Below, one piece after another: positions 1 through 28,061 of a stretch of DNA of 35,527 nt. Both the position numbers and the translations under genes were made by a program. This stretch comes from Jimgerdemannia flammicorona (Eukaryota): positions 1 to 35,527 of the forward strand of contig RBNJ01000250.1 of assembly GCA_003990765.1 (NCBI GenBank), in the 5' to 3' direction. Positions within the stretch are counted from its first letter, which is position 1. Every line of letters starts with the position of its first letter. The notes under the pieces were generated by a model that was not told the origin of the DNA, did not search any database, and worked only from the letters and a program-made list of their open reading frames with translations.

Positions 1-61
1 TTTTTTGCCATTCTGGCTGACCTTTCATGGGTACCCTCTTTTCAATTCCTCCTCACGAAAG

Positions 62-557
62 CGTACGGTGAGATAGGCAACCCTGAGGCCAAGATACCAG
101 GTATACGTCTCTCCACGCCGGGGCCAAGGCGTCGTTGAAGATATTCGTATGTTGTTTGTCTCTCCAAGCGTATGTGTTGTCCTCAAAAATCTTGTGAATC
201 GTAATCACCAGGCAACGCCACGCTGATATTTGAGATCGAGCTCATGAACATTGACCCCAACATTGAGTACGTCAATTTTATTTTATTTTTAGTCACCATC
301 ATTCCACGTCTCATCCGTACACTAACAACCATCTCTCCAGGAACCGCTATTCCAGCCTGACCAAACTGGTGCCGTACGTGCTGATCGCCTGCATCCTCTT
401 TGCGGCTTACCGCTTCCGGCGCTTTGTTACGATCCGCCGCGGCGCCGCGCAGGAGGACATCGAGTTCTCGGCGCTACACGATCATGTTGGGGGTGGGCTG
501 CTGGGGCGGGGCGAGGACGAGGACGAGGAGGGAAGAGCCGCGACTAAGCAAGATTAG
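62..557 (+). CDS. 3' exons of an FKBP-type peptidyl-prolyl cis-trans isomerase with C-terminal TM helix (exons 62-100, 212-266, 341-557; 5' part outside window)
   Basis: Splicing GT..AG introns 101-211 and 267-340 (branch ACTAAC at 321-326) gives (A)YGEIGNPEAKIP-GNATLIFEIELMNIDPNIE-NRYSSLTKLVPYVLIACILFAAYRFRR...TKQD*. AYG..G....IP.NATLIFE.EL is the FKBP domain C-terminal signature. CpG-rich and undamaged. Confidence 0.9.
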
Positions 558-3261
558 TGAAAAGGGAGCGTTGCGGAAGCTAATGGGTTGCTGGGATGAG
601 GTGAGGCGTGCGACGATGCTTGGAAGCTTGGCGAATGTGTAGGTATGTCAGCAAACTTCATTGTTGATGTAATAGCGTGAGTGGCAATTTTTTTCTGTGT
701 AGCTATAATCAATCTTTCTCAAAGTAAAAGAAGCACCAAAGACAGTATTGGTGCTTACGGTTTTCTTAACGATTAAAGAAATATACATTAAACATTTTTT
801 ATATTTATTTATTATTTTTGCAGTGGATATTATAATTGATATTATAATTATTATTGTCATTATTCTCTTATTTATTATATGACATAGTGTGTGAAGTATA
901 TGTTGATCATACAATTTTACAATTTACTTGCATTGTTATTAATATCTACTATACTTATATTTCTATCAAGGAAGGTATTTCTCCGATTGTATATTAATAT
1001 TATGTGTTTGAGCGTCGATCTTTGAGACAGGATGGGTTGATTATATCACGTGAATCGTGTTGCATACAAACTACGTTTTTATATCTTAAACTAGCTATAC
1101 ATATAATTACATATTTTGCGGATTACCGTATTGGCCAAATAGGGGGGTCGTCTCAAGCGGAGCGTGACGTCGCAACCTATTTAACTTAACATACTATCCT
1201 GTTTGTAACACAAATTCGCCCCCAAAAGATAGGCACGTAGATCCAATTATACTGAGAATATTGAACTGTTGTTTATTTAAATATGTTACTAAGATATTTA
1301 TACAAAATAAAAGAGACAAGTGCAGATAAGAAATATATAAATAAAAAATCGATTACCAATAATATCTACTGATTTTCACGGCTTACTGTCTTTCCTCATG
1401 GCTTACTGTCTTTCTTCTAATGAGAAGGGTGCTAATTTGCTCTGTTAATTCATCGATAAAGCTGCTGGCTTCACCAGCATTAATTTCCTCCATCCTCCAA
1501 TATGTATCTCGCACCTGCTCCATCATTTCATTTACTTGTTGTCTTCTTTTCTCTGCTTCTAATTCAGCTTGTGTTCGCTCTAGTTGAGGTATTTCAACTA
1601 GCTCGCGTCTTTCATAAATTTCATAACCGCATTCTGCAAACATTTGCTGAAAGTTTTTCCATGCTTCTGCTGTCAGCAATTTAGTGCCGTACATATGTTC
1701 ATGGAAGATATGCTTGCAAGGTAATAAATACTCATTGAAAAACTTGCAATAGTACTTCAGTGTTGTAAGACCAGGTGTTGACATTTTATCAGTCAATCTT
1801 TTTTCTACTGTCTGAGCTTCATTAGTAATTAGCCTTTGAATAGGAGTAGGAAACTTATGTATCTCTTGAAGAATATCAACAGATATACCAGCTACTGAGA
1901 GTTTGCTAGTACAAAACTCAAAAGCAGTATGTGCCACATTATTAAATTTTTTAGTATCTATGGCTTTAATCTTTTGACAAGTATCTATAATATTTAAAAA
2001 AAAAACTTACCAATTAAACCATATCTATCTGAAGAAGTTAAGGATTTAAGCTCACTATAATATGATTTTAATGGACTTATTAAAGTTACTTAAAGAAGAA
2101 GTAGACAGTACTATTGTGCTCAAAGTCTCTACATCTGAGTATTTTTTTTATAGTTTCTAGTTATATATTGTTTGATACTATCAAGAGAACATATTTGAAT
2201 AGCCTCTTATATAGCATCTTTACATCTAATTTGAGTTCTTCTATATATTGTACTAATCATTTTATTATAAGTTTCTTCATGATAAATTTTGCTAATCTAT
2301 ATATATATAATATATATAGTATATAGAATAATTTTGCATTTCATCTCTCTAGCTATAATTCTAGTACTTTAGTAATACTATTGGCTTCAATACTATTTTG
2401 ATCAGAAAGTATATAATATATATACCAGTTTAGAGCAAACCAATGAATTTTCTTTAATCCTTAAAAGACTATAATACTGTCTTTATTAGTAATAAAAAAA
2501 ATGTCTACCAATATTTCAGCATTCATATATATTATGAATATATAAGGTAAAGAGCCACTATCTCTACTTATTAGTTTTATGTATTGAATCAATAAGTGTG
2601 AGCTATCTATATCTTGTCAATTTTTCAAGTTACTCTTATTTTATAAAAGCAAAGCCTTTTGTAGATTGTAATATTGAGCTGAATTATTTATATTGAAAGT
2701 TTTTTTCTTGTAAAAATTTTAATATCTCTTAAATATCAGTTTCTAGAGATTTGTCACCAATAAGTGAAATATTTAATAGACTATATAATATTCATCACAT
2801 ATTTGCTATATCTTTTGAGTCAATTACTGAATATCTAAATTTTTACTAAATATATTTATAGTAAGCTTTACAACAGTCTTAACAATTGCTGGAGGAGTAT
2901 AGACTTTGCTGACTTCATTATTTATCAATTGTTTGATAATTTTTAAATATTTGACCATATCACTCTTATCAAGAGTATATGTATAATTTGGAGTATTATT
3001 GGTAAATATATCAATATATACTGTTTATATTGCAATTATAATTATAGTTCTGATTTTTGCAAAGCATATATATGTATATCTGAATTACAGATTGTTATCT
3101 TTTATCATTTTTCATTTACCACTTCTTCTTGATGAATACTGGACTCTTGGTGTTTGTTGAGATGACAAATCCAAATTTTAATCTGATCACTATTTGTCTA
3201 TTTACTTTTGGTAAAAGATGTTTAGACATTTGACACATAGGTCTATTAATTGTTAAATTTG

Positions 3262-3665
3262 TATAACATTTTAGTATAGTTTATTTCTTTTCTTTGTCCT
3301 TCTTCAATATTCTATAATCTTCTGATACTTTCCGAATACTTAGAAACCCTTTCTTGGTGCTGAGCATTCTCTAGTACTTATTTAGTTAGTCACTGATTGT
3401 CCTGGAAACTTGTAGAACTTTATTTGTCATCATTTATCATCTTTACCAAGAACTTTCCTCTTGGTATTTTCCTTTGATTTCTCAGATCCTTCTGGATCCT
3501 TTTTTCAGATCTTGTATAAATATTCCCTTTGTTCTCATAAATAAAGTCTTAGAATATTTTCTCCCAGAAATCCTTTGAAGAACACTTGAATCCTTAGTAT
3601 CTCTTTGAGCTACTTAGGACTACCAGAATTAGTTGCTTTCTCATTTAGAAACTAGAACCATTACA
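3262..3665 (+). repeat. 5' LTR of element 1
   Basis: T(A)TAAC...TTACA. Colinear without gaps with 8892-9295. TATAAATA at 3515-3522, AATAAA at 3540-3545. Confidence 0.97.
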
Positions 3666-3667
3666 CT

Positions 3668-3679
3668 TGGTAGCAGTGG
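3668..3679 (+). promoter_or_regulatory. Primer-binding site, probably initiator tRNA-Met
   Basis: TGGTAGCAGTGG lies 2 nt after the LTR. Element 2 has TGGTAGCAGCAG, implying ancestral TGGTAGCAGCGG. TGGTAGC is complementary to the ...GCUACCA 3' end of initiator tRNA-Met. Confidence 0.75.
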
Positions 3680-4779
3680 TGAAGTTACACCTAGCCTTAT
3701 CAAGATACCTCTCAAGATATCAGTCACAACACTATAGAGGATAATGGGTGGAACCCTTTATACAGTACCTATGGTCCAGGTAATGCCTCATATAATCAGT
3801 ACAATCAGCAAGAAGAGGAGGAACAGCAAAACCCTACTCAGTCGAATGGGGCTATCAAGAGTCTTTTGCAGACTGCATTAGCTCATATTGCTCAACTTCA
3901 AGAATGCATAGAAAGAAAGGAAAGTAAGGCCCCCACTCATATCTCTGCACCTCTACTGATATCAATACATCTGACAGCAGTCACTATCAAGCCTCAGAAG
4001 CCTGACACTTTTGATGGTCAAAGAGGAGGACTGTCTACTGATGCCTGGCTTTTCCAATTGGAGCAATATGGAGAACTGACCAATTTGGAAGAAGCAACAC
4101 TAGTCCAATTTGCTGCCACACTCCTCTAAGGGAATACCACAATCTAGTGGTGAAATCATGTCCAGAATACCAGATTCTCTGGCTGAATCAAGACCTGGGA
4201 CAAATTCTCTGATGCTATTCAAGGCCAATTCAAACCAGTCAATAGCACCAAGGCCGCATGAGACCATCTGGCAAATATCAAACAACTCAAGTCTATGTAA
4301 GCATACAATGCACAATTCCTGTCAATCCTGTTAGAATTACCACATGTCACTAAAGATGAGAAGGTTGACCAGTACATCTGAGATCTAAAAGGTCAATCCC
4401 AAGTTCATGTTGAACTAGAAGAATCCAAGGACCTGGATATAGCAATGAAAATTGCTGATAGGTTTGATGTCATCACCTATGGTCAATACTTTGAATAGAA
4501 GAGACTGCCTTTCAACAACAACAACAACTACAGAAGGGAGGAACCCAAAGTCAGAACTGTTGGACCTGCCTCTATGGACCTAGATACTATCAATAAGAGC
4601 AAGAAAGGCAAGCTGATACCTGAGGAAAAGGAGTGTCTCAAGAAGGCTGGAGCCTGCTTCTTTTGTCATCAGCCTGGTCACATTGCAACCAAATGTCCCA
4701 AGAAAACTGCCAAAAACCAAAGAGGATCCTGGTCCTGTCCAAAGACACTCAAGGTCAACCAGTTGAACAAGAAGTTGTA

Positions 4780-5187
4780 CTCAATTTCATACAAGTTAAC
4801 CCCAAGGCCCAGATCCCTTAAGTATAGTCAGAAGGAGCCATTGGTTTAAACCTTCAAGCAGTACAATAAGTCACTATTCTGGCACATGAAAGAAGGCTCA
4901 TTCCAACTGGTCTTTCAGTCGAAATCCCCAAGGAACATTATGCAAGAATTGTGCCAAGATCTAGCCTTAGTTTCAAGCACTCATTAGATATTGGTGCTGG
5001 AGTCATTGACCCTGACTTCTAAGGTGAAATACAAGTCCTGCTAGTCAATCACAAGAACCAACCATATACTGTCAATGAAGGTGACAGAATTGCACAGCTC
5101 ATTCTAGAGTAAGCTACCCTACCAGTCATCAAAGAAGTCACTAAGCTGTCTTCAACCAAGTGAGATCAGAAAGGCTTTGGTAGTACT
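4780..5187 (+). pseudogene. dut: Trimeric dUTPase domain inside element 1 polyprotein
   Basis: One frame: KAQIP..SEGAIGLNL (motif 1), IPTGLSVEIPKEHYARIVPRSSL (motif 2), GAGVIDPDF*GEIQVLLVN (motif 3), EGDRIAQLILE (motif 4), TK*DQKGFGST (motif 5). It continues in frame into the protease. Confidence 0.95.
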
Positions 5188-8100
5188 GACAAAGTTACAA
5201 GCATAGCCAAGAACTAAGCCTATTCAATACTTATCTTCAAAGGTCTAGTCAAGGGATAAGAGCTAGATGTTCTCATAGACAGTGGAGCTGTTGGGAACTT
5301 CATCAACAAGAACCTTATCAACAAGCTCAAGATTCTCACCAAACCAGCCAGCAAGAATAGTGGAGTTGTCACTGCAGATGGCATCACCTTACCAATTGAC
5401 TCAATTGCTGCTAAACTTTCCCTCAAGATCCAGAAGTATTGGGAACATTTAGATTTCAAGGTAGCATCACTAGGAGACTATGATCTGATCCTAGATAAAC
5501 CCTGACTTACATGATATAACCCTCAGATTGATTGGACCAAGAATGAAGTCACCTTGATTTAAGATGGAGCCAATATTACTATCAAGCCAGACAAGACTCA
5601 GACAAGAACCCCAATTGCTACCCTTTCAGTAATTCAGTTCAAGAAGGCCCTCAAGAAAGCTACCTGTGCCTTTGTGGTACTGATCCAACTAAAGAAAAAA
5701 GACAAGAAGCTATCAATTAGTGAAAGCATCAAGTTACTGCTGAACAAGTACAAGGATGTCTTCCCAGACAAACTACCTGGTCTACCATCTTCAAGAGATC
5801 ATGACCACAAAATCAAGTTAGTACCTGATGCAGCTATACCTAAGAAGAAAATGTACCACATATCTCCACTCAAAATTGAAGCAGTCAAGAAGGAACTCAA
5901 TGAACTCATTGAGCAAGGAGCCATTCAACCAAGCAAGTCACCCTTTGGCTCCCCAGTCCTATTTGTCAAGAAAAAGGATGATACTCTGTAAATGTGTATA
6001 GACTACTGTGTACTCAACAAGATTACAATCAAGAACTATTATCCACTACCACTCATAGATCAAATCTTTGATGCTCTCAAGAATGCAAAGTACTTCACCA
6101 AGATTGATCTCACCTCTGGGTATCACCAAATTCGAATCAAGCCAGAAGACATACCCAAGACTGCCTTTATGACACCCTTTGGACTCTATGAATTTCTAGT
6201 CATGGCCTTTGGTCTCACTAATGTGCCAGCAACCTTTCAAGACCTCATGCAAACCATCTTCAAGGATCAGCTCTATATCTTTGTACTTATGTACATTGAT
6301 GACATCCTGATCTTCAGTAGTACTGAAGAAGAACACCTCAAGTACATTGAACAAGTCCTCAAGATCCTCTGTGAGAACAAGCTCTATGCAAAGCTCAAGA
6401 AATGTGAATTTTTCAAGGATCAAGTCGAATACCTTAGACACATTGTATCAGCCAAAGGAATTCAAGTAGACCCAAGGAAAATACAAGTCATTGAACAGTG
6501 GCCTGTATCAATAAACCTTACTGAACTCAGGTCCTTCCTTGGTCTGGCTGGATACTACCATCAATTTGTCAAGAACTTCTCTGACATCACAGAATCTTTA
6601 ACAAATCTCCTGTGAAAAGAACCCAACTCTGATCTCTATGTCTCCTACATCTGGGATGCCTTCTATTAACAAGCTTTTCAAGAACTCAAGAACCACCTGA
6701 CCCATGCACCTGTCCTTAGAAACTTGAAGTTCACAGTCACTATAGATATATCTAACTTTGCCATTAGTGCAGTCATTTCTCAAGATGATGGTCAAGGACA
6801 TCGACCTATTGCCTTTGAGTCAAGAAAATTGTCCCCAGCAGAACAAAAGCTGGCTACTCATGAAAAGGAACTTCTGGCAATCATGTATGCCCTCAAGACC
6901 TAGTGATATTATCTAGAAGGAGTTAAGTTTGACATGATCACTAATCACAGGTCCCTTCAGTACATCAACACTCAACCAACCCTTTCTTGCCAACAAGCCA
7001 AGTGGAGTCAACTACTTCAGATCTTTACCCCAAACATCATCTATAAGTCTGGCAAAACTCTAGTTGTACCAGATGCACTTTCAAGGAGACCTGACCTTGC
7101 CGCAATTTTACAAGTCACCATGGCACCTGAATTCCTCAACCAGATCAAGAAGGCATATGAACAAGACTCTCTGGTTCTACAAAGGAACACCAAGGAATTC
7201 AAGGAAAAGTACACCATCAAGGACAACCTCATGTACTATCAAGACAAAGTATATATTTCTGCTAACCCTGAACTATGGTATAAGATTCTTTATAAACATC
7301 ATGACTCCCCACTAGCTGGCCACCTTGGAACTGAGAAGACTATCAAGAATATCCAATGAGACTACTACTGGCCAAACATGCTCAAGGAAATCAAGGAGTA
7401 TATCCAAAGCTGCGATCTTTACTAAAGAAACAAGTCAAGTAACCAAGCACCTACCAGTCTTCTACAACCCTTGTCAATTCTGACCAAGAAGTTCAAACAA
7501 GTCACAATGGACTTCATTGTGCAACTCCCACAAACCAAAACAGGCTATGATGCTATTGTTGTATTTGTGGATTATCTCACCAAGATTACAATCACCGAGC
7601 CAACCACAATCAATACTACTACCCCAGAAATTGCAAGAATCTTCTTCAAGACTGTCTTCTGTCATTATAGACTTCCCCAAGTAATTATCAGCGACCATGA
7701 CCCCAAGTTCACAAGTCACTTCTGGCAAGCACTCTTCAAGACCCTTGGAACCCAAATTGCTATATCCACTGCCTTCCATCCTCAAACTGATGGACAGACC
7801 AAGCGAATGAACAGAACACTTGAACAAATGCTCAGAAACTATGTGTCTTATGAGCAAGATGATTGGGACTACTACCTGACCTATGCTGAGTTTGCCTACA
7901 ACAATGCCAACCAATCATCAACTGGTCTTTCCCCATTTCAGCTACTTCATGGTCAAAACCCCAAGATCCCTGCGAGCCTAGTTCAATTCCAGCAATTCAG
8001 TCACACTCAAGTCCCTATAGCCCAGAACCTTATTGACAAAATGAATTCCCTTCTCAAGATCACCACTACAAACCTACAAAAGACTCAGCAATATCAAGCT

Positions 8101-8410
8101 AAGTATGCAGATAAGAAGTGGCAAGATGTCATATACAACATTGGTGATATAGTTCTACTCAAAGCTGACAACATCAAGGCTCAATCTCAAGTCAATTGCC
8201 AGTCAGCCAAATTTCAGCCCAAGTACCTTGGACCCTTCGAGATCACTGAGCAAGTCTCTACCTGGTCTTACCATCTCAACTTACCAATAACCATACATAT
8301 ACACCCAGTATTCCATGTATCATATGTAACTCAAGGCCTGGAATCAGTCACCCCCATACCCTGGCTGAATTCCAACACCATCAGCACCAGTCATAGTTAA
8401 AGACCATATC

Positions 8411-8560
8411 GAGTATGAAGTTGAGAAAATTTTAGACAAGTGAGTCCAATACTGTTACACAGAATATCTAGTCAAGTGGATGGATTACCCTGAATATAAT
8501 GCCACCTGAGAATCTGCTGCCAATCTCAAAAACTCCCAAGATCTCATCCAAGAGTTCGAG
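8411..8560 (+). pseudogene. Integrase C-terminal chromodomain, element 1
   Basis: EYEVEKILDK*V....EYLVKWMDYPEYNAT*ESAANLKNSQDLIQEFE. Confidence 0.93.
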
Positions 8561-8878
8561 TAAAAAGGAACTCATTGACTGTCCATGAGGTTCTCCTCTT
8601 AGATAGTAGATGACCTACTGTACTGATCAGGCACATTACACATTGGGGCTCTCTAAGGGATACAGTATCAGAAGCAAGAGATATAGGAGAACCCTATTAA
8701 TCCTACAACTAATGAGGTTTGAACCAGTTCTCATCTGATCAAGATAATACTTTGGCCCTCGCCTTATACAAGGATGGCCAATCCTTGGCAATGAGTCAGT
8801 ATATTTAATTTGAAGTTTCTTTTAGTCTTATTGTTTATTATATATAACTTTGAGAATTCAACAAGGACATTAATTCTT

Positions 8879-8891
8879 AAGGAGGGAGAGA
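8879..8891 (+). promoter_or_regulatory. Polypurine tract, element 1
   Basis: AAGGAGGGAGAGA directly before the 3' LTR TGTAAC. Confidence 0.9.
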
Positions 8892-9295
8892 TGTAACATT
8901 TTAGCATAGTTTATTTCTTTTCTTTGTCCTTCTTCAATATTCTACAATCTTCTGGTACTTTCTGAATACTTAGAAACTCTTTCTTAGTGCCAAGCATCCT
9001 CTAGTACTTATTTAGTTAGTCACTGATTGTCCTGGAAACTTGTAGAACTTTATTTGTTATCATTTGTCATCTTTGCTGAGAACTTTCCTCTTGACATTTT
9101 CCTTTGATTTCTCAGATCCTTCTGGATCCTTCTTTCAGATCTTGTATAAATATCCCCTTTGTTCTCATGAATAAAGTCTCAGAATATTTTCTCCCAGAAA
9201 TCTTTTGAAGAACACTTGAATTCTTAGTATCTCTTCAAGCTACTTAGGACCACCAGAATTAGTTACTTCCTCATTTAGAAACTAGAACTGTTACA
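8892..9295 (+). repeat. 3' LTR of element 1
   Basis: TGTAAC...GTTACA terminal inverted repeat, 404 bp. Confidence 0.97.
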
Positions 9296-9430
9296 ATTCG
9301 TTTACTGAGAGCTAAAATGGCTGCTATATATCAAAAGCTATATTTATATTTCCTTTATTATTAATATAGTTACCATTATAATAAACTGTCAGATATAATA
9401 ATATTAAGATATGATAGAATTGTGATAGTT

Positions 9431-9730: not shown

Positions 9731-9857
9731 TATTTCCTAATTATAGCAATGATGAGATAGTGAACTGCTGAGCAATAATAGATGATAAAAAACTGCTGAG
9801 TAGTAATGATAGATAATAAAAAACTAGTAGACAATAATAGATAATAATATTACTGAG

Positions 9858-9926
9858 TAGTGAAGATATGGTCTTGAGGGATAGTGAAGATATAGTCTCA
9901 GAGAGCAGCAAAGATATAATCTTGGG
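9858..9926. repeat. Left part of 24-bp minisatellite split by LTR element 2
   Basis: About 3 units of (AAGATRTRGTCTYRGRGRRCAGYA-like), ending in TSD TTGGG. Confidence 0.8.
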
Positions 9927-10352
9927 TATAATAATTTCACAGTCATATTTAGTCTTAGTATATTTTCACATCTTTTAGTTAGTCTTTTCTTGTCATTTCT
10001 TAAATATTCTACTATGTTCCACTACCTTCTACTTGCTTAAAAACCTTCTCTCAGCACTCAGATACTACTAGAATATTCTTGTCTTTCCTTAGCATCAAGT
10101 ATCTTATCTTAGCTAGTCATGGAACCTTTTGGAATATTGTAGAATAGTATTAGTCAGCTTTACTGAGAACCTATTTCTTGATATTTCTCTTTCTTTCTAA
10201 GATCCTTCCAGATCTTTCTTTCAGATCATATATAAATATCCTTATTATTTATCTAAATAAAGCTTAGAATATTTTCTCTCAGAAATTCTTTAAAAATACT
10301 TGAACCTTTAAGTATTTCTCTAAGCTACTTTAGGCTAACTAGAACTGTTACA
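9927..10352 (+). repeat. 5' LTR of element 2 (426 bp)
   Basis: TATAATAATTTCACAGTC...GAACTGTTACA. Matches 15474-15938 except for a 39-bp deletion near the end. Confidence 0.95.
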
Positions 10353-10400
10353 CTTGGTAGCAGCAGTGTCATTATATCTTGTCTTATTAAAAAACCTTAT

Positions 10401-13400
10401 ATGAATTTGGAAACCAGTCACAAATAGTCATATGAATCTGAAATAATCCATGAAGAGTCAGTCTATCAGCCAGACCTCTCTGCTACAGAAGAAGTGAGAG
10501 AATCACAGCTCAACATAGAGAATATAATCAATGCTATAGTCTATCAAATCCAAGAACTTCAAGTATAACTAGAACAGCAGAAAATAAGAACTGTAAGTAC
10601 ATTACATTCTGCTATAGTATTATTAGTTTCAAGCCACTCAAGCCAGATACCTTCAACAGCCATTGAAGAGAGCTATCTATAGATACATGGATCTTCTAGT
10701 TAGACTAATACTTTGAGCTCACAAAAATGAAAGAAGACATATAAGTCCAATTTACTACTATACTTCTCTGAGAAAATGCAGCTATCTAATAGCATAATCA
10801 TATCATAGTTACCTCTATATACTTATATATATATATAAATCAGAGACTGGAAAGCCTTCAAGAGAGCCTTTTATAAGCAGTTCAAGTCTACTAATGCTAC
10901 CAAACTAGCCAGAGACAAGCTAGCAAACATTAAGTAACTCAAGTCTATACAAAGCTACAATGTACAATTTTTGTCAATTCTACTCAAGCTACTAGTGATA
11001 TCTGAGGACAAAAAGATAGACCACTATGTCTGAGGTCTGAAGAGAAATACACAAGTCAAGGTCAAGCTAGAAGAGCCCAAAAATCTTAATGAAGCCATGA
11101 GAATTACCAATAGGTTTGATATTATCACCTTTGGTAACTGCTTTGAACCAGAACACTACAAGAAGAACCACTTTGAGAACTGTCACAAGAATCAACCAAA
11201 GATAGTTGGTCTAGCACTAATAGACCTAGATACTATGAACAAAAAGAACACCAAGCTTACCCTTGAAGAAAAGGACTGCCTGAAGAAATCTAGAGCCTGT
11301 TTTTTCTATTGTCAAACAGAATACATTGCAACCAAATATCCTAAGAAGACTAGTAAACTCTCAAGATCAGTCACCATATTGTTCAAAGATACATCTGTCA
11401 ACCCCACTACTAGTCAACCTAAGCTTAAGATCAAGAAGCTTCATCTGAAAGCCCAGACCCCTCAATATCAAATAGAAGAAGTCATTGGTCTTAACCTATA
11501 CTCTGTCAAACAAGTTACCATTCCAGTCAAGGGCCAAACTCTAGTATCTACTGGAATTGCAGTTCAATATTCTGAAGAACATTATGCCAGAATTGCACTA
11601 CAATCAAGACTTAGTGTCAAATATTATTTAGATATATGTAGGTACTAGTATCATTGACCCAGACTTTTAAGGACAAGTTCAAGTTCTGCTTATTAACCAG
11701 AAGGATCAAAACTATACAGTTAAGAAAGGAGACCAAGTTGCACAAATGATTCTAGAAAAAGCCAGTCAACTCAAGATTACAGAAGTCCAAGAACTCTCTG
11801 AAACCCAATGAGATCAAAAAGGTTTTGACAGTACTAATCAAGTAGCAAGTCTTAGTGAAAATTAAGCTCAAGCTATGCCCATTTTCAAAGGCCTAGTCAA
11901 AGGAAAAGAAGTTTAAGTACTCATAGACAGTAGAGCTACAGAGAACTTCATCAATCAGAATCTCATTAAAAGCCTCAAGATCCTTACCAAGCCTAATAGT
12001 ATAGTTACTATAGATGGTACTCTGTACTCTATTGAGTCAATTGCCACCAAACTACCCATTAAGATCCAGAAATATTGGGAATGAGTAGACTTTGAGATTG
12101 CACCACTAAGAGATCATAACCTGATCTTAGAAAAACCCTGACATATGAAATATAATCCAGACATTGATTGGTATAAGAATGAAGTTACTCTACTTCAAGA
12201 TAGAGCTAATATCACTATTAAGACAGACAAAACCATGAGTAAGACCCAGATTGTAACACTGTCAGCTATATAGTACAAGAGAGTACTCAAAAAGATAATA
12301 TATATCTTTATTGTAATAGTCCATTCCAAGAAATAAGACAAGAGACTATCAGTCAATAAAAGTATCAAGTTACTGCTAGAAGAATTCAAGGATGTCTTTC
12401 CAGACAAGCTATCTGGTCTACTGCCTACATGAGAAGTTTATCATGAAATTGAACTGACCCCAGAAGCTGTATCATCCAAGAAACACATGTACTATATATT
12501 GCCACTTGAAATAGAAGCAGTCAAAAAGGAACTAGAAGAACTACTTATATGAGAAGCCATTCAGTCAAGCAAATCTCCTTATGGCTCATCAGTCTTATTT
12601 GTCAAGAAGAAGGATGGTATCCTATAAATATACATAGACTATCATACACTCAACAAACTCACTGTCAAGAACTGCTATCTACTACCCTTGATTGATCAAA
12701 TCTTTGATACTCTCAAGAATATCAAGTACTTCACTAAGTTAGATCTCATGTCAGGATACCACCAATTCAAATCAAGCCAGAAGACATTTCCAAGACTATA
12801 TTTATGACTCTCTTTGGACTCTATGAATTTCTGGTCTTAGTATATAGTCTCACTAATGCACTTACTACATTCTAGACCTTGATGAATAAGATATTTAAGA
12901 ATCAACTATTTATTTTCCTGTTGATATATCTTGACAATATCCTGATCTTTAGTACAAAAAGAAGAATACCTCAAACACATTTGTATAGTTCTGGAGATTC
13001 TGTGAAAATACAAGCTTTATGCCAAGCTCAAGAAGTGTGAATTCTTTAAAGAACAAGTTGAATATCTTGGCCACATTGTCTCTGTATAAGGAATTTAAGT
13101 AGATCTATACAAGATAGAAGCAATTAAAGAATGGCCCATTCTGTCAAACCTTACAGAACTCTGATCCTTTCTTGGTCTAGCTGGCTACTATTACTGCTTT
13201 GTCAGAAACTTCTCTGATATTACCAAGCTACTGACTAATCTCATAAGAAAGGCCTTGTACTCAGACTACTATGTACCCTATATCTGAGACCTCTTCTGTC
13301 AATAAGCCTTTCAAGAACTCAAGAACCACCTGACCCATACTCTAGTCCTACATAATGCAGATCAAGGCCTAAAATTCACAGTCACTACTGATGCATCAAA

Positions 13401-15145
13401 TTTTGCCATTAGAGCAGTCCTGTCATAAGATAATAGCAAAGGACATCATCTTATTACTTTTGAGTCCTATAAGTTGACCTCAGCTAAATAAAAACTAGCC
13501 ACTTATAAGAAGGAACTACTGGTAATAATATATGCACTAAACCACTGGTGATATTATCTAGAAGATATTGAGTTTGATATTATTACTGATCATCAATCTC
13601 TCAAGTACATCAACACTGTCATATCTATAAGTCAAGTAGAGTCTCAAGCTTCAAACCTTCAACCCAACAATCATCTACAAGCTTAGCAAGACACTTATAG
13701 TACCAGATGTCTTATCAAGATGCCCAGACCTCACCACAATCATACAAATTACCTTGGCATTAGAATTCCTAGACCAAATCAGATAAACTTATAAAGAAGA
13801 CACAGTTGCCACTAGAGTTTTCTCAAATAAGCTCAAGGATATATATACTGTTGAGAACAATCTGATCTATCATCAAGATCAAGTCTATCTATCTGAAAAC
13901 ATAAACCTATACTATAAGGTTTTGCAAGAACACTATGACTCTCCAACACCACTACTATTGGCCAAGCATGGTCAAGGAAATCAAGAACTATGTTGCCAGC
14001 TATGATCTATATTAGTATGATAAGTCTATCAACCAAGTGTTAGTCAGTTTGCTATAACTACTGCCAATTCTTATCAAGAAATTCAAGCAAGTTACCATGG
14101 ACTTTGTAACTTAACTACCATAAACTCAATCTGGTGTTGATGCTATTTTCATATTCATTGACCCCTGACCAAGGCTATGGTTACTGAACCAACTACTACT
14201 AATGCTACTGTACCTGAGATTGCAAGAATCTTCTTCAAGTCCATCTTCCATCACTATAGCCTACCATAAGTAATTGTCAGTGATCATGACCCCAAGTTCA
14301 CCAGTTACTTCTGGCAAACTCTCCTCAAGACCCTGGGAATTTAATTGGCTATGTCTACTATCTTTCACCTACAAACTGATAGACAAACCAAATATATAAA
14401 CAGAACTCTAGAACAAATACTTAGAAACTATGTTTCTTATAAGCAAGATGATTAGAACCACTATCTGACTTATGCAGAGTTTGCATACAACAACACTATC
14501 CAATCATCTACTGGTCTTTCTCCTTTCTGGTTACTCTATGGTTAAGATCCTGAGACCTCTGCAAATCTATTCTCTTTCAAGAAAAGTAGTCAAATATAAG
14601 TCCCAACTGCTAAGAACCTTACAGATAAAATGGATGAACTACTCAAGATTGCTACCATGAATCTTCAGAAAACTCAACAGTATCAAGCCAAGTATGCTGA
14701 TAAGAAATGCTGTAATATCACTTATACTGTTAGAGATTAAGTTCTACTGTCTACTGAGAATCTCAAGATACAATCTCAAGTCAATTGCTCTTTGAACAAG
14801 TTCCAACCTAAGTATATTAGACCTTTCAAGATCACTGAACAAGTCTCTGCATCCTCCTACCACCTCAAGCTATCTGAAATCATAAGAGTACACCCAGTCT
14901 TTCATATGTCATACCTCAAGACCTGGAACCAGTCACCACCCTACTCTGGTTGAATTCCTAAGCCTTCTGTCCCTATGATTATTGAAGACTATATTGAGTA
15001 CAAAGCTGAGAAAATTTTTGACAAATAAATCTGCTACTGCCATCCTGAATACCTAGTCAAGTAGATGGGTTATCCTAAATATGATGCTATCTGGGAACCA
15101 CTGATCAACCTCAAGAACTCTCATGATCTAGTTTAAGACTTTGAG
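10401..15145 (+). pseudogene. gag-dUTPase-pol-chromodomain polyprotein of element 2 (start approximate)
   Basis: LKPDTFN (Gag), decayed knuckle ACFFYCQTEYIATKY, VLIDSRA, YLDN (decayed YLDD), MDFV/SDHDPKF, and chromodomain EYKAEKIFDK..EYLVK*MGYP...WEP at 14996-15145. Small deletions, e.g. in the integrase HHCC region near 13945. Confidence 0.9.
11424..11835 (+). pseudogene. dut: Trimeric dUTPase domain inside element 2 polyprotein
   Basis: LKIKKLHLKAQTP..IGLNL, STGIAVQYSEEHYARIALQSRL, IIDPDF*GQVQVLLIN, KGDQVAQMILE, TQ*DQKGFDST. Confidence 0.93.
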
Positions 15146-15473
15146 GCAAAATACATTGCCCAATCTCTGTAGTGACTTTCTTGGATTGTTGATGACCTAT
15201 GGCAATAATTAGTGCCTTATGCATCAGAAGTTTACTTTGGGACCTAAGAATTAGTAAAACATTTAATAAATAAGAAGTCCATCGAAATGAAGCTACTAGC
15301 TAGATTTGAACTCCTCCCAGTTAGTTAGTCTGATAATAGACCCTCTGTCCTATACAAGGATGACCAATCTCCACCAATATACCAATAAAGATTTGAGAAA
15401 TTTTGGTTAAGTATATCTAGTCTTATGTTATCTAAGAACTTAATGAGGACATTGGTTTTTAAGGAGAGAGAGA

Positions 15474-15938
15474 TATAACAATTTTACAGTCATATTTAGT
15501 CTTAGTATATTTTCACATCTTTTAGTTAGTCTTTTCTTATTATTTCTTGAATATTCTATTATATTCCACCACCTTCTACTTGCTTAGAAATCTTCTCTCA
15601 GTACCCAGACATTACTAGAACATTCTTGTCTTTTCTTGGTACTAAGTATCTTGTCTTAGCTAGTCATGAAACCTTTCAGAACATTATAGAATAGTATTAG
15701 TCAGCTTTGCTGAGAACCTATTTCTTAGCATTTCTCTTTCTTTCCAAGATTCTTTTGGATCTTTCTTTTAGATTATATATAAATATCCTTATTCTCTGTT
15801 TGAATAAAGCTCAGAATATTTTCTTCCAGAAATCCTTCAAGAATACTTGAATCTTTAAGTATCTCTCTAAGCTACTTTAGATCAATTAAAACTTCCAGAT
15901 TTAGCTACTTCCTCTTTAAAGAAATTAGAACTGTTACA
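15474..15938 (+). repeat. 3' LTR of element 2 (465 bp)
   Basis: TATAACAATTTTACAGTC...GAACTGTTACA, following the PPT. Confidence 0.95.
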
Positions 15939-16340: not shown

Positions 16341-16407
16341 AGCAATAGAGATATTGTACAGTTTTAGTAGTGCTGAATAAAAAAAAATAATACCACCTAG
16401 TAGATAT

Positions 16408-22168: not shown

Positions 22169-22259
22169 CAAGTCGGACATCTCTTTCCAGTATCATTCAG
22201 GTTACACAACCTTTGGAAGGCACTTTCAACATCATTTTTGGTGAAAAGAGACTAACAAC

Positions 22260-24283
22260 ATGGCAACTGACAGGCAACCTGAGGTGCATACTGGGCAGGG
22301 TGGCCCAAGTACTTTCGACTGGCAGCAGGTGGGGAGGGGTCCAGGCCTGGAGGGGGTATGAGGGGCCTGCTGGCAGGTGGATGTGGAAGGGGTGGAGGAG
22401 GTGATAGAGAATCAGGTTCTGGGAGGACAAGCTTCATAGAGATGGTGAAGGGGAGACAGCAGGTGTCAGGGCTAGAGGGCTGGCTGAGGAAGGGCAAGGA
22501 GACCAAGAAGGTGACAGTGCAGGGGGGAGCGGCCCTTGGAAGGGGGGGCAGTAGAGCTGGAGAAGTAGTGGCTGGGGGGGGTGTGACTGCTGATGGTGAT
22601 GGGACTGTCAATCTGGAAAAAAATCCAGATATGATGGCTGGTGGCGAGGCTGAGCAGCTGAGGCTTAGAAGACAAGGGGACTTAGCGGATAGTGTAATGG
22701 GTCTGGCGGTGGCCCCATTACTCAAAAAATCGATCTCAGTATTTGCAGTCACACTGTGCTTCCGGGGCCTGGCAGTGATGGTGAAAATAGTACTGGGGCT
22801 CATCGCTAAGCAGGTGGCAGGAGCTACGTCAGTGAAGTTTTTGAAGGGACTGGAAGGAGTGGAGGTGGGTTTTGAGGAGGCAGTACCACTGGAGGAGGCA
22901 CTGAAGGTTGGATTGGTGGTTAGAGAGGTGTGTATTCTAATAGTGCAGTGCTTGAAGTGGGACCCCAGGGTGGTCCAACTGCTGGTGAAAGGAGTGCCAA
23001 TAGTGATAGCGATGGAGACAAGAAAGAGAGTTGAGGATTTCATAGCAGAATATGGAGAGGTGGTGGATATTGGGTTCAGGGTCTGGGAAGGGACCTCACT
23101 CAGGACTGGTGATGTGGATGTAAGAATTCAGCTGGCTGGGAAAGAAGCCACTGGGAAGGCAAGGGACTGGTCTTTGGCGATGGTCTGGAGAGCGATCCTG
23201 TGTAAGGTGACAAGGGTGAAGGGAAGTGAGGAGGAGGAGAAGGATTTATTGGAAGCACTAGAAGAGCTGGGTGGTGCTGTAGAGAGGCAAGCAAAGGCTT
23301 GGGAGGCTTTTGTAGAGTCGACACACTTGGAGGTGGTGGATGGAAAGTGGATTTGAGTGACCAAGGAGCAGTGGGAAAGGGCTCAGGGGCATAAGAGACA
23401 GAAAGAACTACTGGCCAAGCTGGATAGCAGACCACTGGGAGAGGCGAGTAAGGTGAAGGGCACAGGGGGAGCCAAAGTGAGTGTCTGGGCTAGCGAGGGG
23501 GAGGGGAAGGACAAGAAGGAGGCGGGAGAGAACAAGGAGAAGGCTAGGAAGGACCCATATGCTGATGGTACACTGGAGGTTTGGGAGGAGGACTGAGAGG
23601 GTTCTCCTACCCCTACCCCTCTCATCAGGCATGGCCTGGCTTCCCAGAACAGGGTGGTAGAAGATGTGCCAATGCAAGGGGCCCAGAGGGTGCAATTCGG
23701 AGTTCCGGAGGTAGTATATGGGGGACAGGTGGTGGCGGCTGGTGAGGAGGAACTGGTAGATGTCCTGGAGGTATGAGATGAGTCTGCAAGTGCTGGAGCT
23801 AACACCACAATGTTGGATGGAGGGAGGCCAGTGACTCTGGGGGAGAAAGAGGTGGGGAACTTGCTTTGGATATACCAGATGATGAATAACCTGATGGCAG
23901 AAGAGTTGGGAGAGGTGGACTTGCAAGTGATGAGTGATGAACATTGGGCAGGGATACTGCAGGGGGATGGCATAATGAAGGCATTGAAGGTGGAAATTCT
24001 TGTGGTGTACCTGGAGGAGGAAGGGTATGAGGTGGATAAGGAGAGGGAGATAGAGATAGTGGTTGTTGCTAGAGAGAGGGCTGAATACTGCTGGAACAAG
24101 CATCATGGACTACAGCTCTGACAGGAGGCGTACATCGAATACTGAGAGGAGTTCGAGGAGAAGGCAGATGGAGAGATGAATGAACTGCTGGCTGGATTGG
24201 AGGCTCAGAGGGCAGAAGAGGAGGAGGTGGCTGCGGAACATAATCTGGACATGGCACAGGAGGAGATGAGCATAGAGCAGTAG
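22260..24283 (+). pseudogene. LINE C ORF1 (~675 aa; Gly/Arg-rich N-terminus, RRM-like core, acidic helical C-terminus)
   Basis: MATDRQPEV...RGLLAGGCGRGGGG; VQLLVKGVP...IAEYGEVVDIGFRVWEGTSLRTGDVDVRIQL. One frameshift near 22350 and a few TGA stops. Homologous in all four LINEs. Confidence 0.85.
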
Positions 24284-24316
24284 AGACTGATTGATGACAT
24301 AACATATTTCATCATT

Positions 24317-27300
24317 ATGAACAGTACAACCAACATTTTCTCTTTAAATGTGAATGGGTTACAGGGTGCTTCTTGACATAGGAACATTTTTACTTAGATG
24401 AAGGAATTGGAGGCCAATCTCTTCCTCTTGCAGGATGTCCGGTGCGAAGATGACTCTGATAGGATAGAATAGACAAAGGAATGGGGAGGTGTGGCAATTT
24501 GGAAGGGCAAGGTTGGGATTTTGATTAGGAAAGGCAGAGGGGAGATACAGAATGTGAGGAGCTGGGGGGAGAGACTGGTCTGGGGAGAGTGAATTTGGGC
24601 AGGCTGGGAGCCAGTTATGGTTGGCTCCTGCTACTGCTCTGCAGTACAGGGTGAGAGAGTAGATTGGATGAAAGGCTTACAGGAGAGTGGATTACTTGCA
24701 GAGGCTGGGGTGGATATGCTTGGGGGAGATTTCAATATGGTTCGGAATATACTGTTGGATAGAACAGATAGAGGATGAGGTGCTGAGAGCAGGAGTGGAG
24801 AACTGGTGGCATAGGAGGAAGTAGAAAGACTAAGTGCACTAGTAGATGCTGGAAGGGAGTGCTGGGGGAATAGGAGGGTTTATACATATTGGGCAGGGGG
24901 TCTGGGGGCTAGAATCAACTGGATTTTGAAAGCCAGCTGCTGGGGTCTAGATGTTTGGAAGTCACTGGAGGTGGAATGGTGTCTATGGTCAGATCACTGG
25001 GGGCTTTTGGGACAGGGGTGCTTTGGGGGAAGTGGGGATGGGCCTGGACATTGGTACCTCAATTTCTCTTTGTTAGATGACAAGACTCAGTGGGATGAGT
25101 GGGCAAAAGACATTCAGCTGAGGGTGGAGAACTGGAGGCAGGAAGGGGCCTCAGTTGGGACTCAGTGGATGAGGATGAAGGAAATGGCCAGGATTTACTG
25201 GAAGGAGGCTGGCAAGGAGGCAGGGAAGCAGTGAAAGCAAAGAGTATGTTGGGCCTCCACTAGATTGATGAGGCTCCTGGAGGAGTGGGTGAGGCTGATG
25301 ATATTGGAGGGAGAAGAAGATTGGAGATTAATGAGGGCGAAAATGGAGGTTGGGGAACTTCAACAGGTGCTGCAGGAGGAGGAAGAGGCAAGGGTACAGA
25401 GGTCTTCACTGGCAGGATCTGGAGGAAGGAGAGAGGCCTTCCAAGCTTCTTACAAGGGCCCTTAGGGTGAGGCAGGTACAGCAATGGTGGGAAGGGGTAT
25501 TGGACTCCAATGGTGTACTGGTGCATGGTATACAGGACATTCTTAGATCACTGAAGGAGAGATGGAGTAGATTGTAGAGTGAGGAGGAGGGTGGGGCAGA
25601 TGCCGCTACAATTGAATGAACATTGGAGGATTGGCACCCACCACAAGTCGAAGGGCTAGGGGACCTGGTGATATCTGTACAGGAGGATGAGATCCACCAG
25701 GTTCTTGCCATGACAATGCCAGATACGGCACCTGGGGAGGATGGTCTGCCCTGGGACTTTTGGAAGCAATGGTTGGAGTCCCAGGGGTAATGGGAGAGAT
25801 GACAGCATTGTGTGACCTTATTCTACAGACAGGGAGATGGGTGGGAGAGCAGGACCTTGGGCTGGTGACACTGCTTTACAAAAACAAAGGAAGGCGGGAA
25901 GATTGGAAGAACTGGCGGCCAATAATGTTGCTAGATATGGACAGAAAGTTGGTAACTAAGGTGGTGGTGACAAGACTACAGAAGGTGGCCCAGTAAGTCA
26001 TGGGTGTTGAGCAGAGGGGATTTGTGGGTAGTTGGCTCATCAGAGATGGCACTACCTAGGTATATGGCATTATCAAAGGGGTGAGGGCCTGTAGACTAGA
26101 TGGGCATCTAGTCTTCTTGGACCAGGAGAAGGTATATGACTGGGTGTGAAGAGTCTGACTGGCGAAAGTTTTGGATAGAATAGGAGTTCCGCATCAATTC
26201 CAGTCAGCAATGGTCAGCCTACTGGAAGGGAGTAGGGCTGCACTCATGCGTAATGGACATAGAGGGGTAGCATTCCCCTTGGGTAGAGGGGTGCCCCAGG
26301 GGGACCCATTGTCCCCCATTTTGTATGCTCTTTCTCTGGAACCCCTTATGGATAGAATTAGGCAGAGGATAGCAGGGCTCTCTGTCTTTGGCATAGAATG
26401 GAAAGTTGGGGCCTTTGCTGATAACATAGTGGTGGGTTTGGGTTCGATTGCTGATGTTGAGGAGCTCAAGAAGACTGTGGAGTGGTATGAGGAGTACTCT
26501 GGAGCTAAGCTGAATTGGCATAAGTATGAAATGATGGTGCTAGGCAATAGCCTGGTGGGAGGGGAAGTTATAGGAATAATCATCCCCACTGGTGAAGCAG
26601 TGCAATACTTAGGTATCTACTTGTCAGTCTATGGGTCAGTTCTGCCTAGGCTTTGGTGAGAGCAGAGGATTGGAATCTGGGAGGAGGCCCTGTAGAGTTG
26701 GGGGGGAAGACATTTTTCTCTGGCAGAGCAGATCTTGATTTTGAATGTCTACTGGCTGCCAAAGTTGTAGTACCTGGCATATAATCTAGACTTCCCGGCC
26801 TGGGTGGTGAAGAGATTGATGAAGTCAGTGAAGGGATGAATTTGGGCTGACAGGCAGAGTCAGATTAGTTGGGAGACCTTGTCCCTACCAGTGGCAAGAG
26901 GCGGTCTTGGGCTGGTTGACTTTCCAAAACAGTTACACTGCTTGAGAGCATGGTGGCTGAAGAGGGCAGTGGAGTTGAGAGGAGGTGGATGGGTTCCTCT
27001 GCTACAGAAGATCTGGGAGAGGCAGGCATCGCCAAGGGGCTCAACTGGCGATCTCCTCTCCTTGGTTGGACTTCAGAACACTGGACAACTATGATATAAA
27101 GGATTTTGGTGGGGGATTGCAGATGGGGTGCACCACATTAGTATTTGTTGGCAGGGAAATGAAGGAGAGGAGGATTGGGACTCAGCAATATGGAGATAGG
27201 ATTGTATACTGCTGGGTGGCACTCCTTTAATTGAGTTTGACATTAGTGATGGAATAGAATACCAAAGGGGACCAGGCCAGGATCTGTGGCCTAGCAGTTG

Positions 27301-27961
27301 GCAAGGAGTTGGAATTGGCAAAGAGTGGAACTGGCATGGTGTTTGGACCTGGAGTGCTGCAGTGAGAACATGGCTGCTACCAAAGTACTGGGTGGTCTGG
27401 TGGCACATGCTGCAGAGGAATGTTATGCTCAACTTTTGCTCGGGGCACCTTATCATAGGGGATTGCTTCAACTGTGAGGAGTGTCATAATATAGAACAGG
27501 AGGGGGGTTATGTACAGACACCAGAACATTGGCTAGAAGAGTGTGAGGCGTTGGGGGATTTTTGGTGGACAATTGGAGATCACTTGGGGGTATAGGGTAG
27601 GGGTGATGAAGTATGGGGGAGGTGGGAGGACTTGAGGGATAGATTGGTAGGGGGGATAGGGAAGGAGTGGCTTACTTTGGGTTGGACTTTGGCTATTTGG
27701 GTGGGGCTGGCCAGTCATTGGCTATTTGTTTTTGAGGATGGGAGAAGACAGAGCTTGGGAGACCAGTTGCTGTAGTGGCATAGGCTTATGGAAGACACCT
27801 TAACAGGCTGGTAGCTGGGTTGGGGGATGTGGGGTGGTCGGAGGCACCACTTAGTGGAGAAAATCTGTGGGCAAAGTGGGGGGAGAGTTGGGGTAGTTGG
27901 TGAAAGGGTGATTTTTATTCATAAGGAGGTAGGGAGGGGCCCCCCTGTGGGGATTGGGTAG
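24317..27961 (+). pseudogene. LINE C ORF2: APE endonuclease + reverse transcriptase + C-terminal Cys/His motif
   Basis: FSLNVNGL, FLLQD, LGGDFN, RINWI, SDHW, GPGHWYLN.SLL, KNWRPIMLLDMDRKL, QRGFV, LDQEK, RGVPQGDPLSP, AFADN (AFADD in copy D), QYLGI, LPVARGGLGL, CEEC...EHWLEEC. Confidence 0.95.
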
Positions 27962-28028
27962 TGGGTAGGAATGATGTATATTTATTCATAGACTGGTAAT
28001 AAAGGTGGAGTCCAAGTGACTATAAAAG

Positions 28029-28061
<33 letters not shown>

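What the first reader, a model, noticed from the sequence alone, without database searches (positions are those of the whole stretch)
3257..9300. Transition-only, non-CpG-inclusive hypermutation (RIP-like) in a probable non-Dikarya fungus
Seen: by hand alignment the two 404-bp LTRs differ at 30 sites, all C/T or G/A, with no transversions or indels. About 9 are clear CpG events (TG vs CA pairs); the rest are in CpA/TpG, CpC and CpT contexts. The invariant LTR-initial TG has become TA in 3 of the 4 LTRs in the window, which cannot be CpG decay. Even the TSD is hit (ATTCG to ATTTG), and TGG codons have repeatedly become TAG/TGA. Known: RIP is characterised in Ascomycota (CpA bias), with CpG-biased RIP-like patterns in some Basidiomycota. 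Inference: if the host is Mucoromycota, this is a broad-context repeat mutagenesis system outside the groups where RIP is established. LTR-divergence dating is invalid here.
Basis: partly seen in the sequence, partly recalled or inferred. Interest (0 to 1): 0.7.

Follow-up and report, generated by a model that had tools for sequence, protein, structure and literature searches.

The report
Unclustered cytosine hypermutation in fungal repeats
In an early-diverging root-symbiotic fungus, transposons and other repeats lose cytosines to C-to-T changes far faster than they gain any other change, one site at a time and mainly but not only at CG, which looks like the footprint of repeat methylation rather than of classical RIP.

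Summary
The two 404-bp LTRs of a dead Ty3/gypsy element differ by 30 transitions and nothing else; 14 sibling LTR pairs give 290 transitions and 8 transversions. The host is Jimgerdemannia flammicorona (Endogonales, Mucoromycota). Against intact rDNA the change is directional C-to-T. Relative rates are about CpG 220: CpA 30: CpC 24: CpT 5: T-to-C 1, with one trinucleotide fingerprint across transposons and rDNA pseudogenes. It does not behave like RIP. Mutations are neither clustered nor strand-coordinated, CpG dominates, the load falls off next to a gene within one repeat, and the RIP index is negative. No RID was found, but there are three DIM-2-like genes and a Clr4. Best reading: heterochromatin methylation by DIM-2-like enzymes, followed by unrepaired or enzyme-assisted deamination. 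Methylation was not measured, and no direct single-copy SNP control was available. Methylation-linked repeat mutation is known in Zymoseptoria and Tuber; my searches found no report for Mucoromycota. LTR-divergence dating is inflated more than tenfold. The scan noted this same phenomenon before on other contigs of this genome.

The parts
1..557 (+). 3' part of a host FKBP-type isomerase gene; CpG intact; internal control and host marker
   Evidence: Last exon 342-554 is 100% identical over 71 aa to P0021, named J. flammicorona by NCBI, Pfam FKBP_C; CpG o/e 1.14 in 1-1000
1226..3256 (-). Low-copy decayed DNA-transposon remnant (MULE-like by a recalled SWIM-type motif; no Pfam hit). Near-gene end spared, distal part hypermutated
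   Evidence: About 3 close homologues elsewhere; window-side C>T 22 in 774 bp near the gene vs 89 in 966 bp distally; last CpG at 1688; Pfam blank
3257..3261 (+). Left target-site duplication ATTTG
3262..3665 (+). 5' LTR of element E1 (TA...CA), followed by a primer-binding-site-like TGGTAGC
3695..4850 (+). Broken gag (zinc knuckle), 9 premature stops
   Evidence: translation; stop count
4890..8570 (+). Broken pol: dUTPase, aspartyl protease, RT, integrase, SH3, chromodomain-like tail; 15 premature stops counted in 4909-8290
   Evidence: Pfam dUTPase, gag-asp_proteas, RVT_1, rve, SH3_Tf2-1; chromodomain read by eye
8878..8891 (+). Polypurine tract
8892..9295 (+). 3' LTR of E1 (TG...CA); 30 transitions from the 5' LTR
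9296..9300 (+). Right target-site duplication ATTCG (CpG kept here, lost on the left)
9927..15938 (+). Second, more decayed Ty3/gypsy element E2 (69% identical internally to E1), TSD TTGGG; LTRs differ by 54 transitions and 1 transversion over 420 bp
22181..28038 (.). LINE-like repeat (label from the poly-A tail and frames; not scanned against Pfam) with the same fingerprint
   Evidence: 89.6% to L086, 526 transitions and 74 transversions; trinucleotide contexts

Best explanation
Repeats are packed in H3K9-methylated heterochromatin (Clr4) and methylated by DIM-2-like enzymes, densely at CpG and less at CpA/CpC (best in CAY and CCT), hardly at CpT. Each methylcytosine then turns into thymine independently and escapes repair, on either strand, continually after insertion. 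Shown here: direction, contexts, rates, independence of events, dependence on position, sparing of gene islands, and presence of the genes. Inferred: that the DNA is methylated, that the DIM-2 paralogues write it, and how deamination happens. I put slow hydrolytic deamination with poor T:G repair and methyltransferase-assisted deamination at roughly even odds.
For: Direction: dispersed 18S copies vs intact 18S give 600 C>T/G>A, 35 reverse transitions, 96 transversions; the one clearly independent long copy (L036) gives 225/4/21. Rates in 14 E1 copies: CpG 0.73, CpA 0.099, CpC 0.078, CpT 0.018, T>C 0.0033. Same fingerprint in E1 and rDNA (Spearman 0.91 over 12 non-CpG trinucleotides) and in three further repeat pairs. 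Phycomyces transposons are methylated in CG and CHH but not CHG (PMC11258239); here CHG 4.3% vs CHH 6.4%. No strand heterogeneity among copies (chi2 9.7, df 13, p=0.72) and no spatial clustering; simulated same-strand bursts of mean size 2 fit with P=0.0035. CpG loss and CpA+CpC load rise together across copies (r=0.80, n=14). In one low-copy element the near-gene end is spared while the same stretch in homologues is hit (Fisher p=0.025 with one partner). In 30 MITE copies, ends lose more CpG than the centre (33% and 51% vs 20-29%). Three DIM-2-like loci and a chromo-PreSET-SET Clr4 gene. Dim2 causes mitotic C>T in repeats of Zymoseptoria (PMC8016269).
Against: No methylation data. The rate excess (about 220-fold at CpG, 25-30-fold at CpA/CpC) is far above the 10-15-fold that I recall for mammalian CpG, and a TDG/MUG-like repair gene is present. 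Neurospora DIM-2 prefers CpT (PMC13297926), the context spared here. In Zymoseptoria the mutated context (CA) differs from the mainly methylated one (CG), so mutation spectra need not mirror methylation. No canonical DNMT1 was found to explain dense CpG methylation. The CHG-CHH gap is modest, CAA is as low as CAG, and C3657 is nearly tied between DIM-2 and DNMT1 by phmmer. One of four same-strand adjacency tests was marginal (p=0.037). MITE and E1 copies were the top hits by similarity, so they lean towards less mutated copies.
Confidence: 0.62

Rival explanations
1. RID-independent RIP: homologous repeats are recognised by pairing before meiosis, and a DIM-2/Clr4 pathway mutates them, weakly (one or two hits per element per cross), with spreading into flanks.
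For: This pathway exists in Neurospora, needs DIM-5 and HP1 and spreads into single-copy flanks (bioRxiv 10.1101/115501). The genes are present. Dispersed rDNA copies are hit while the intact rDNA keeps 96 CpG in 2,410 bp. Many weak rounds would also look unclustered.
Against: That pathway strongly prefers CpA, whereas CpG leads here about 7-fold. Same-strand bursts averaging 2 or more are rejected. A 600-bp MITE with 1,696 candidate hits keeps 67% of its CpG in 30 copies, and its ends are more hit than its centre. Adjacent inverted arms of 500 bp at 93.7% identity keep 13-14 CpG each, with 11 transitions and 7 transversions.
Confidence: 0.2
2. A cytidine deaminase or a TET-type route attacks repeat DNA without 5mC being the main determinant.
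For: The very high rate and the reproducible trinucleotide preference could be an enzyme's fingerprint.
Against: Both strands are hit alike, and twin LTRs, TSDs (11 transitions, 0 transversions in 25 MITE TSD pairs), DNA transposons and rDNA copies are all affected, so it is not retro-cDNA editing. There is no processive clustering. APOBEC_N and Tet_JBP searches were blank, which is weak evidence in an intron-rich, fragmented genome.
Confidence: 0.08
3. A genome-wide C>T mutation bias, with gene islands kept GC- and CpG-rich by selection or GC-biased gene conversion.
For: No direct single-copy substitution spectrum was obtained.
Against: Whole gene loci picked by gene searches, introns and spacers included, hold mostly 19-55 CpG per 500 bp, next to repeats with 0-2. 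CpG o/e is bimodal in 380 bins. MITE singletons give 87 transitions and 91 transversions. The gradient lies inside one dead element.
Confidence: 0.05
4. Classical RID-dependent RIP, either in this host or because the contig comes from an ascomycete contaminant.
For: The assembly holds a second, ascomycete-looking 18S (L037; assignment recalled).
Against: The window's own gene matches a J. flammicorona protein at 100%, and the mutated rDNA copies derive from the other 18S type. No RID among 6 C5-methyltransferase places; RID is reported only in Pezizomycotina (PMC9963178). RIP index negative; no bursts.
Confidence: 0.03

Closest known systems
Dim2-dependent mitotic C-to-T mutation of repeats in Zymoseptoria tritici (PMC8016269, passages)
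   Same: DIM-2 present; over 95% C>T; confined to methylated repeat regions; not tied to meiosis (inferred here)
   Different: There over 98% of hits are at CpA and CG is not mutated, and rid is present. Here CpG leads, CpC is nearly as hot as CpA, no RID was found, and the host is outside Dikarya
Transposon methylation with deamination in Tuber melanosporum (PMC4165359, PMC4352252, passages)
   Same: Repeat-rich mycorrhizal genome; CpG signature first, CpA second; no RIP-index signal; C>T density higher in methylated transposons
   Different: Tuber is an ascomycete with a RID/Masc1 gene; CpC excess and CpT sparing were not seen in the passages read; CpG erasure here is near total
Phycomyces blakesleeanus transposon 5mC (PMC11258239, PMC7862722, passages)
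   Same: Mucoromycota; DIM-2-like enzyme (sister to C8187); CG > CHH > CHG on transposons, as the mutation ranking here
   Different: Phycomyces also has DNMT1; no hypermutation of its repeats was described in the passages read
RIP of Neurospora crassa, RID branch and DIM-2 branch (bioRxiv 10.1101/115501, PMC12543289)
   Same: C:G to T:A in repeats; transposons inactivated; DIM-2/DIM-5 machinery; intact rDNA spared
   Different: RIP is premeiotic, homology-triggered, CpA-biased and gives up to 108 mutations per progeny in one tester; here events are single, CpG-led and position-dependent, and no RID was found
CpG/TpCpG RIP-like bias in Basidiomycota such as Microbotryum (PMC4352252, passages)
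   Same: CpG-led C>T in transposons without RID
   Different: Linked there to Masc2/DNMT1-class enzymes and TpCpG; here TCG is the least hit NCG and non-CpG hits are strong

Membership tests
RIP (RID-dependent) | C:G to T:A excess in repeated DNA | tested here: met
   290 of 298 substitutions in 14 LTR pairs; 600 vs 35 polarised
RIP (RID-dependent) | RID/Masc1 gene | tested here: not met
   PF00145 and TIGR00675 searches gave 6 places, all DIM-2-like or DNMT2-like; assembly fragmented, and no RID protein was used as query; literature agrees
RIP (RID-dependent) | CpA preference, positive composite RIP index | tested here: not met
   CpG about 7 times CpA; index -0.39 in repeat bins, -0.56 in E1
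RIP (either branch) | Clustered, strand-coordinated mutation per round | tested here: not met
   very weak repeated rounds not excluded
RIP (either branch) | Trigger is sequence homology | tested here: inconclusive
   Position gradient, MITE and inverted-arm controls argue against it; NUMT and paralogue tests found no material
RIP (either branch) | Acts premeiotically | not testable with these tools
   needs crosses or single-zygospore sequencing
DIM-2/5mC-linked repeat mutation | DIM-2-type methyltransferase gene | tested here: met
   C8187 best hit DIM-2 structures E 4e-47 vs DNMT1 6e-31; C11271 N-terminal exon hits only DIM-2; C3657 orthologue near-tied but inside the DIM-2 clade in a quick tree
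DIM-2/5mC-linked repeat mutation | H3K9 methyltransferase and HP1 | tested here: inconclusive
   Clr4-type gene found; HP1 not searched
DIM-2/5mC-linked repeat mutation | Repeats carry 5mC in the mutated contexts | not testable with these tools
   no methylome; analogy with Phycomyces only
DIM-2/5mC-linked repeat mutation | Mutation depends on the DIM-2 gene | not testable with these tools
   needs knock-out or heterologous expression
APOBEC/AID-type editing | One-strand, clustered edits on retro-cDNA; deaminase gene | tested here: not met
Ty3/gypsy LTR retrotransposon | LTRs, TSD, PBS/PPT, gag then PR-RT-IN order | tested here: met

The most novel reading that the evidence does not exclude
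Endogonales run an active, RID-free repeat mutator built on an expanded set of DIM-2 paralogues, at least one of which promotes deamination with its own CG > CAY/CCT specificity. DIM-2-driven repeat mutagenesis would then predate Dikarya and be the ancestral state on which RID-based RIP was later built.
Probability: 0.25. Interest if true: 0.78.

Novelty: new variant of a known kind. Interest (0 to 1): 0.5.

Why it matters
A kingdom-wide screen concluded that RIP-like signatures are confined to Ascomycota (PMC12543289). It included this species and scored its repeats as not enriched for the eight AT-rich tetramers listed (0.76-0.81). CpG decay refills the CpA/TpG pool, so such indices cannot see this process, and other early-diverging genomes may have been missed in the same way. 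The fingerprint gives a site-level prediction for a methylome. It also points to a lineage with DIM-2 but without RID, where the open question of whether DIM-2 alone mutates repeats can be tested (Phycomyces is culturable). In practice, LTR insertion ages in this genome are overstated: 5.1% transitions against 0.14% transversions between twin LTRs.

Tried and rejected
Reads of another isolate for a single-copy SNP control: none was listed. NUMTs as a homology-free test: one 10-kb mitochondrial stretch was searched and gave only short matches that look like mitochondrial repeats; loci were not examined. Recent gene paralogues as a control: only one EF1-alpha and one EF-Tu were found. Metagenome relatives of the Endogone methyltransferase: none. 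ESM Atlas on the window's exon: no usable hit. Loss of T:G repair: rejected as a simple cause, since a TDG/MUG-like gene is present. MITE as an immune repeat: rejected; it carries the signature at a lower dose (CpG lost 292 of 884). CpG o/e of island versus repeat bins is circular, because bins were defined on it; only the bimodality, the CpT enrichment (1.36 vs 0.89) and the RIP index are used. Sequencing or storage damage: rejected, because genes and mitochondrial DNA in the same assembly keep CpG. Rows dropped: of 22 stretches examined for LTR pairs, 6 had one LTR, 1 had no matching TSD and 1 was truncated; of 30 MITE loci, 4 lacked recognisable ends and 1 lacked a TSD. DNMT5 and HP1 were not searched with their own queries. 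The careful tree did not finish; the quick tree is cited.
Full report
OBSERVATION. Window 3262-9295 is a dead Ty3/gypsy element (E1) with 404-bp LTRs, a 5-bp TSD, a polypurine tract and Pfam hits for dUTPase, protease, RT, integrase and SH3. Its LTRs differ at 30 sites, 18 C/T and 12 G/A, with no transversion or gap. By family columns, 12 are CpG, 10 CpA, 6 CpC and 2 CpT events. The TSD change is itself a CpG event. Of 24 premature stops, 13 are at CGA-type codons, 6 at CAA/CAG, 4 at TGG and 1 is mixed. The neighbouring element E2 shows 54 transitions and 1 transversion between its LTRs. CpG is normal up to position 1688 and strongly depleted after it, at o/e 0.00-0.18.

HOST. The last exon of the window's FKBP gene is 100% identical over 71 aa to a protein named Jimgerdemannia flammicorona by NCBI. 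A methyltransferase exon elsewhere in G000 matches two J. flammicorona proteins at 100% and an Endogone protein at 59%. The host is therefore Endogonales, Mucoromycota. The assembly also holds a second 18S that looks ascomycete to me (recalled), but the mutated rDNA copies derive from the other type.

EXTENT AND DIRECTION. The E1 LTR search gave 1,956 candidates, of which 40 were scored. From 22 stretches, 14 clean LTR pairs give 290 transitions, 8 transversions and 2 gaps in 5,644 columns. In 14 full copies, private changes are 560 C>T/G>A, 111 reverse transitions (34 of them at CpG-type columns) and 73 transversions. Intact 18S gives a known ancestor: 8 segments of 7 dispersed copies show 600 C>T/G>A, 35 reverse and 96 transversions, with CpG 61% (near the site-level ceiling), CpA 34%, CpC 31% and CpT 10% of cytosines changed. 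Four of these copies share transversions and are one lineage; the independent copy L036 alone gives 225/4/21. Most long repeat pairs in about 450 kb of sampled DNA have Ti/Tv of 5-50. Gene loci chosen by gene searches hold mostly 19-55 CpG per 500 bp, and CpG o/e is bimodal over 380 bins from 19 contigs, 273 of them at or below 0.2.

SPECTRUM. At 155 CpG-type sites in E1 the copies read CG 498, TG 813, CA 700 and TA 126. Corrected per-cytosine rates are CpG 0.73, CpA 0.099, CpC 0.078 and CpT 0.018, against 0.0033 for non-CpG T>C and about 0.002 for transversions: about 220:30:24:5:1. The T>C figure counts only low-frequency changes, so the ratios are approximate. Non-CpG trinucleotides rank CAC, CAT, CCT > CAA, CCC, CAG > CCA, CCG > CTN, alike in E1 and rDNA (Spearman 0.91, n=12), and three other repeat pairs show a similar pattern. 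A 5' T is least favoured at CpA, and in unpaired counts at CpG. The composite RIP index is negative (-0.39 in repeat bins, -0.56 in E1).

IS IT RIP? RIP should leave same-strand clusters. The C>T to G>A ratio is homogeneous across copies (chi2 9.7, df 13), within 500-bp windows (132.7, df 156) and across single LTRs (24.0, df 27). Neighbouring private changes share a strand no more often than in permutations (0.531 vs 0.538), and spacing is random; one of four frequency cut-offs gave p=0.037. Simulated bursts of mean size 2 fit with P=0.0035, and larger ones essentially never. Position matters within a repeat. The low-copy transposon remnant at 1226-3256 is spared next to the gene (18 window-side vs 41 partner-side changes) but not distally (30 vs 28; p=0.025), and two other homologues agree (22:48 near, 89:45 distal). 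A 600-bp palindromic MITE with 8-bp TSDs sits mostly in CpG-void surroundings but has lost only 292 of 884 CpG in 30 copies (E1: 77%), with more loss at its ends. Its TSDs show 11 transitions and no transversion in 25 pairs, about the same per-cytosine load as E1's TSDs (2 changes in 14 pairs). These copies were top hits and lean towards intact ones, so this weakens but does not exclude a homology trigger.

GENES. Profile and protein searches found three BAH/DUF7893-type methyltransferase loci (C8187, C11271, C3657) and three DNMT2-like places (C58 and C2181, perhaps one split gene, and C1744). C8187 and C11271 match the Neurospora DIM-2 structures best (entries identified in PMC11315935). The C3657 orthologue is near-tied with DNMT1 by score. 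In a quick tree, C8187 is sister to the Phycomyces proteins, and both rows fall with Trichoderma proteins, apart from MET1-like and CMT-like rows. All three read ENV at motif VI; that RID differs there is recalled. A MET1/DNMT1 query found only these loci, weakly. A chromo-PreSET-SET Clr4 gene and a TDG/MUG-like gene are present; APOBEC_N and Tet_JBP searches were blank. These searches work exon by exon in a fragmented assembly and can miss genes: PF00145 missed C11271.

MECHANISM. The simplest chain is: Clr4 heterochromatin, then DIM-2-like methylation (CG > CH), then independent deamination that escapes repair (0.62). The mutational steps are shown; methylation and enzyme roles are inferred. 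A weak homology-triggered DIM-2 branch of RIP remains possible (0.2). The size of the excess leaves open that an enzyme assists deamination.

LITERATURE SEEN. PMC12543289: abstract, passages, sections 8 and 9, and supplement rows. It finds RIP-like signatures only in Ascomycota, and this species has repeat enrichment 0.76-0.81 for eight AT-rich tetramers; supplement files 15-19 were not searched and file 14 had no row. Passages only: PMC9963178 (RID only in Pezizomycotina, DIM-2-like genes in Endogonales), PMC11258239 and PMC7862722 (Phycomyces 5mC), PMC8016269, bioRxiv 10.1101/115501, PMC4352252 and PMC4165359, PMC13297926, PMC11315935, PMC12210899. Searches listed no paper describing repeat hypermutation in Endogonales; I saw most of their hits only as listings. 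The library lacks most subscription papers, and I did not see the original Endogonaceae genome paper, so a prior mention is possible.

VERDICT. The feature is real, strong and genome-wide in repeats. It is a new variant of methylation-linked repeat mutagenesis, in a phylum where I found no report of it, and it is not a member of RIP by the features that could be tested. Earlier notes of this scan describe the same thing on other contigs.

Noticed in passing
window 4890-5200: The Ty3/gypsy element carries a dUTPase between gag and protease (Pfam E 8e-8), also visible in E2, plus a chromodomain-like integrase tail.
   Followed up: partly
L123-L152 (e.g. G000:C3:1161-1777): A high-copy 600-bp palindromic MITE with 8-bp TSDs (hAT type by recalled rule) sits in CpG-void repeat regions yet keeps two thirds of its CpG, best in its centre; it may resist methylation or be protein-bound.
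   Followed up: partly
L037 (G000:C34400): A second 18S rRNA type, 89.6% identical to the main one and ascomycete-looking (recalled), suggests a contaminant or co-habitant in the assembly.
   Followed up: no
L039, L040, L041, L043: Four dispersed 18S fragments share transversions, so one rDNA fragment was amplified after capture, perhaps by a mobile element.
   Followed up: partly
G000:C8187, C11271, C3657; C58, C2181, C1744: Three DIM-2-like paralogues and probably two DNMT2-like genes; no canonical DNMT1 found.
   Followed up: partly
L001-L030: LTR-initial TG reads TA in 5 of 16 5' LTRs but 0 of 14 3' LTRs among the top hits; small numbers, and the query was a TA copy.
   Followed up: no
L155-L164: Mitochondrial DNA is in the assembly as many contigs, with cox1 split by introns and abundant short GC-rich repeats that keep CpG.
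   Followed up: no
L094:2962-3786: A five-unit tandem repeat of about 176 bp whose units differ mostly at CpG (29 transitions, 1 transversion) while most CpG survive: an early stage of the decay.
   Followed up: partly
window 15940-16350 and 9855-9926: Short degenerate tandem repeats of about 20-24 bp flank E2 on both sides, so E2 inserted into this array.
   Followed up: no
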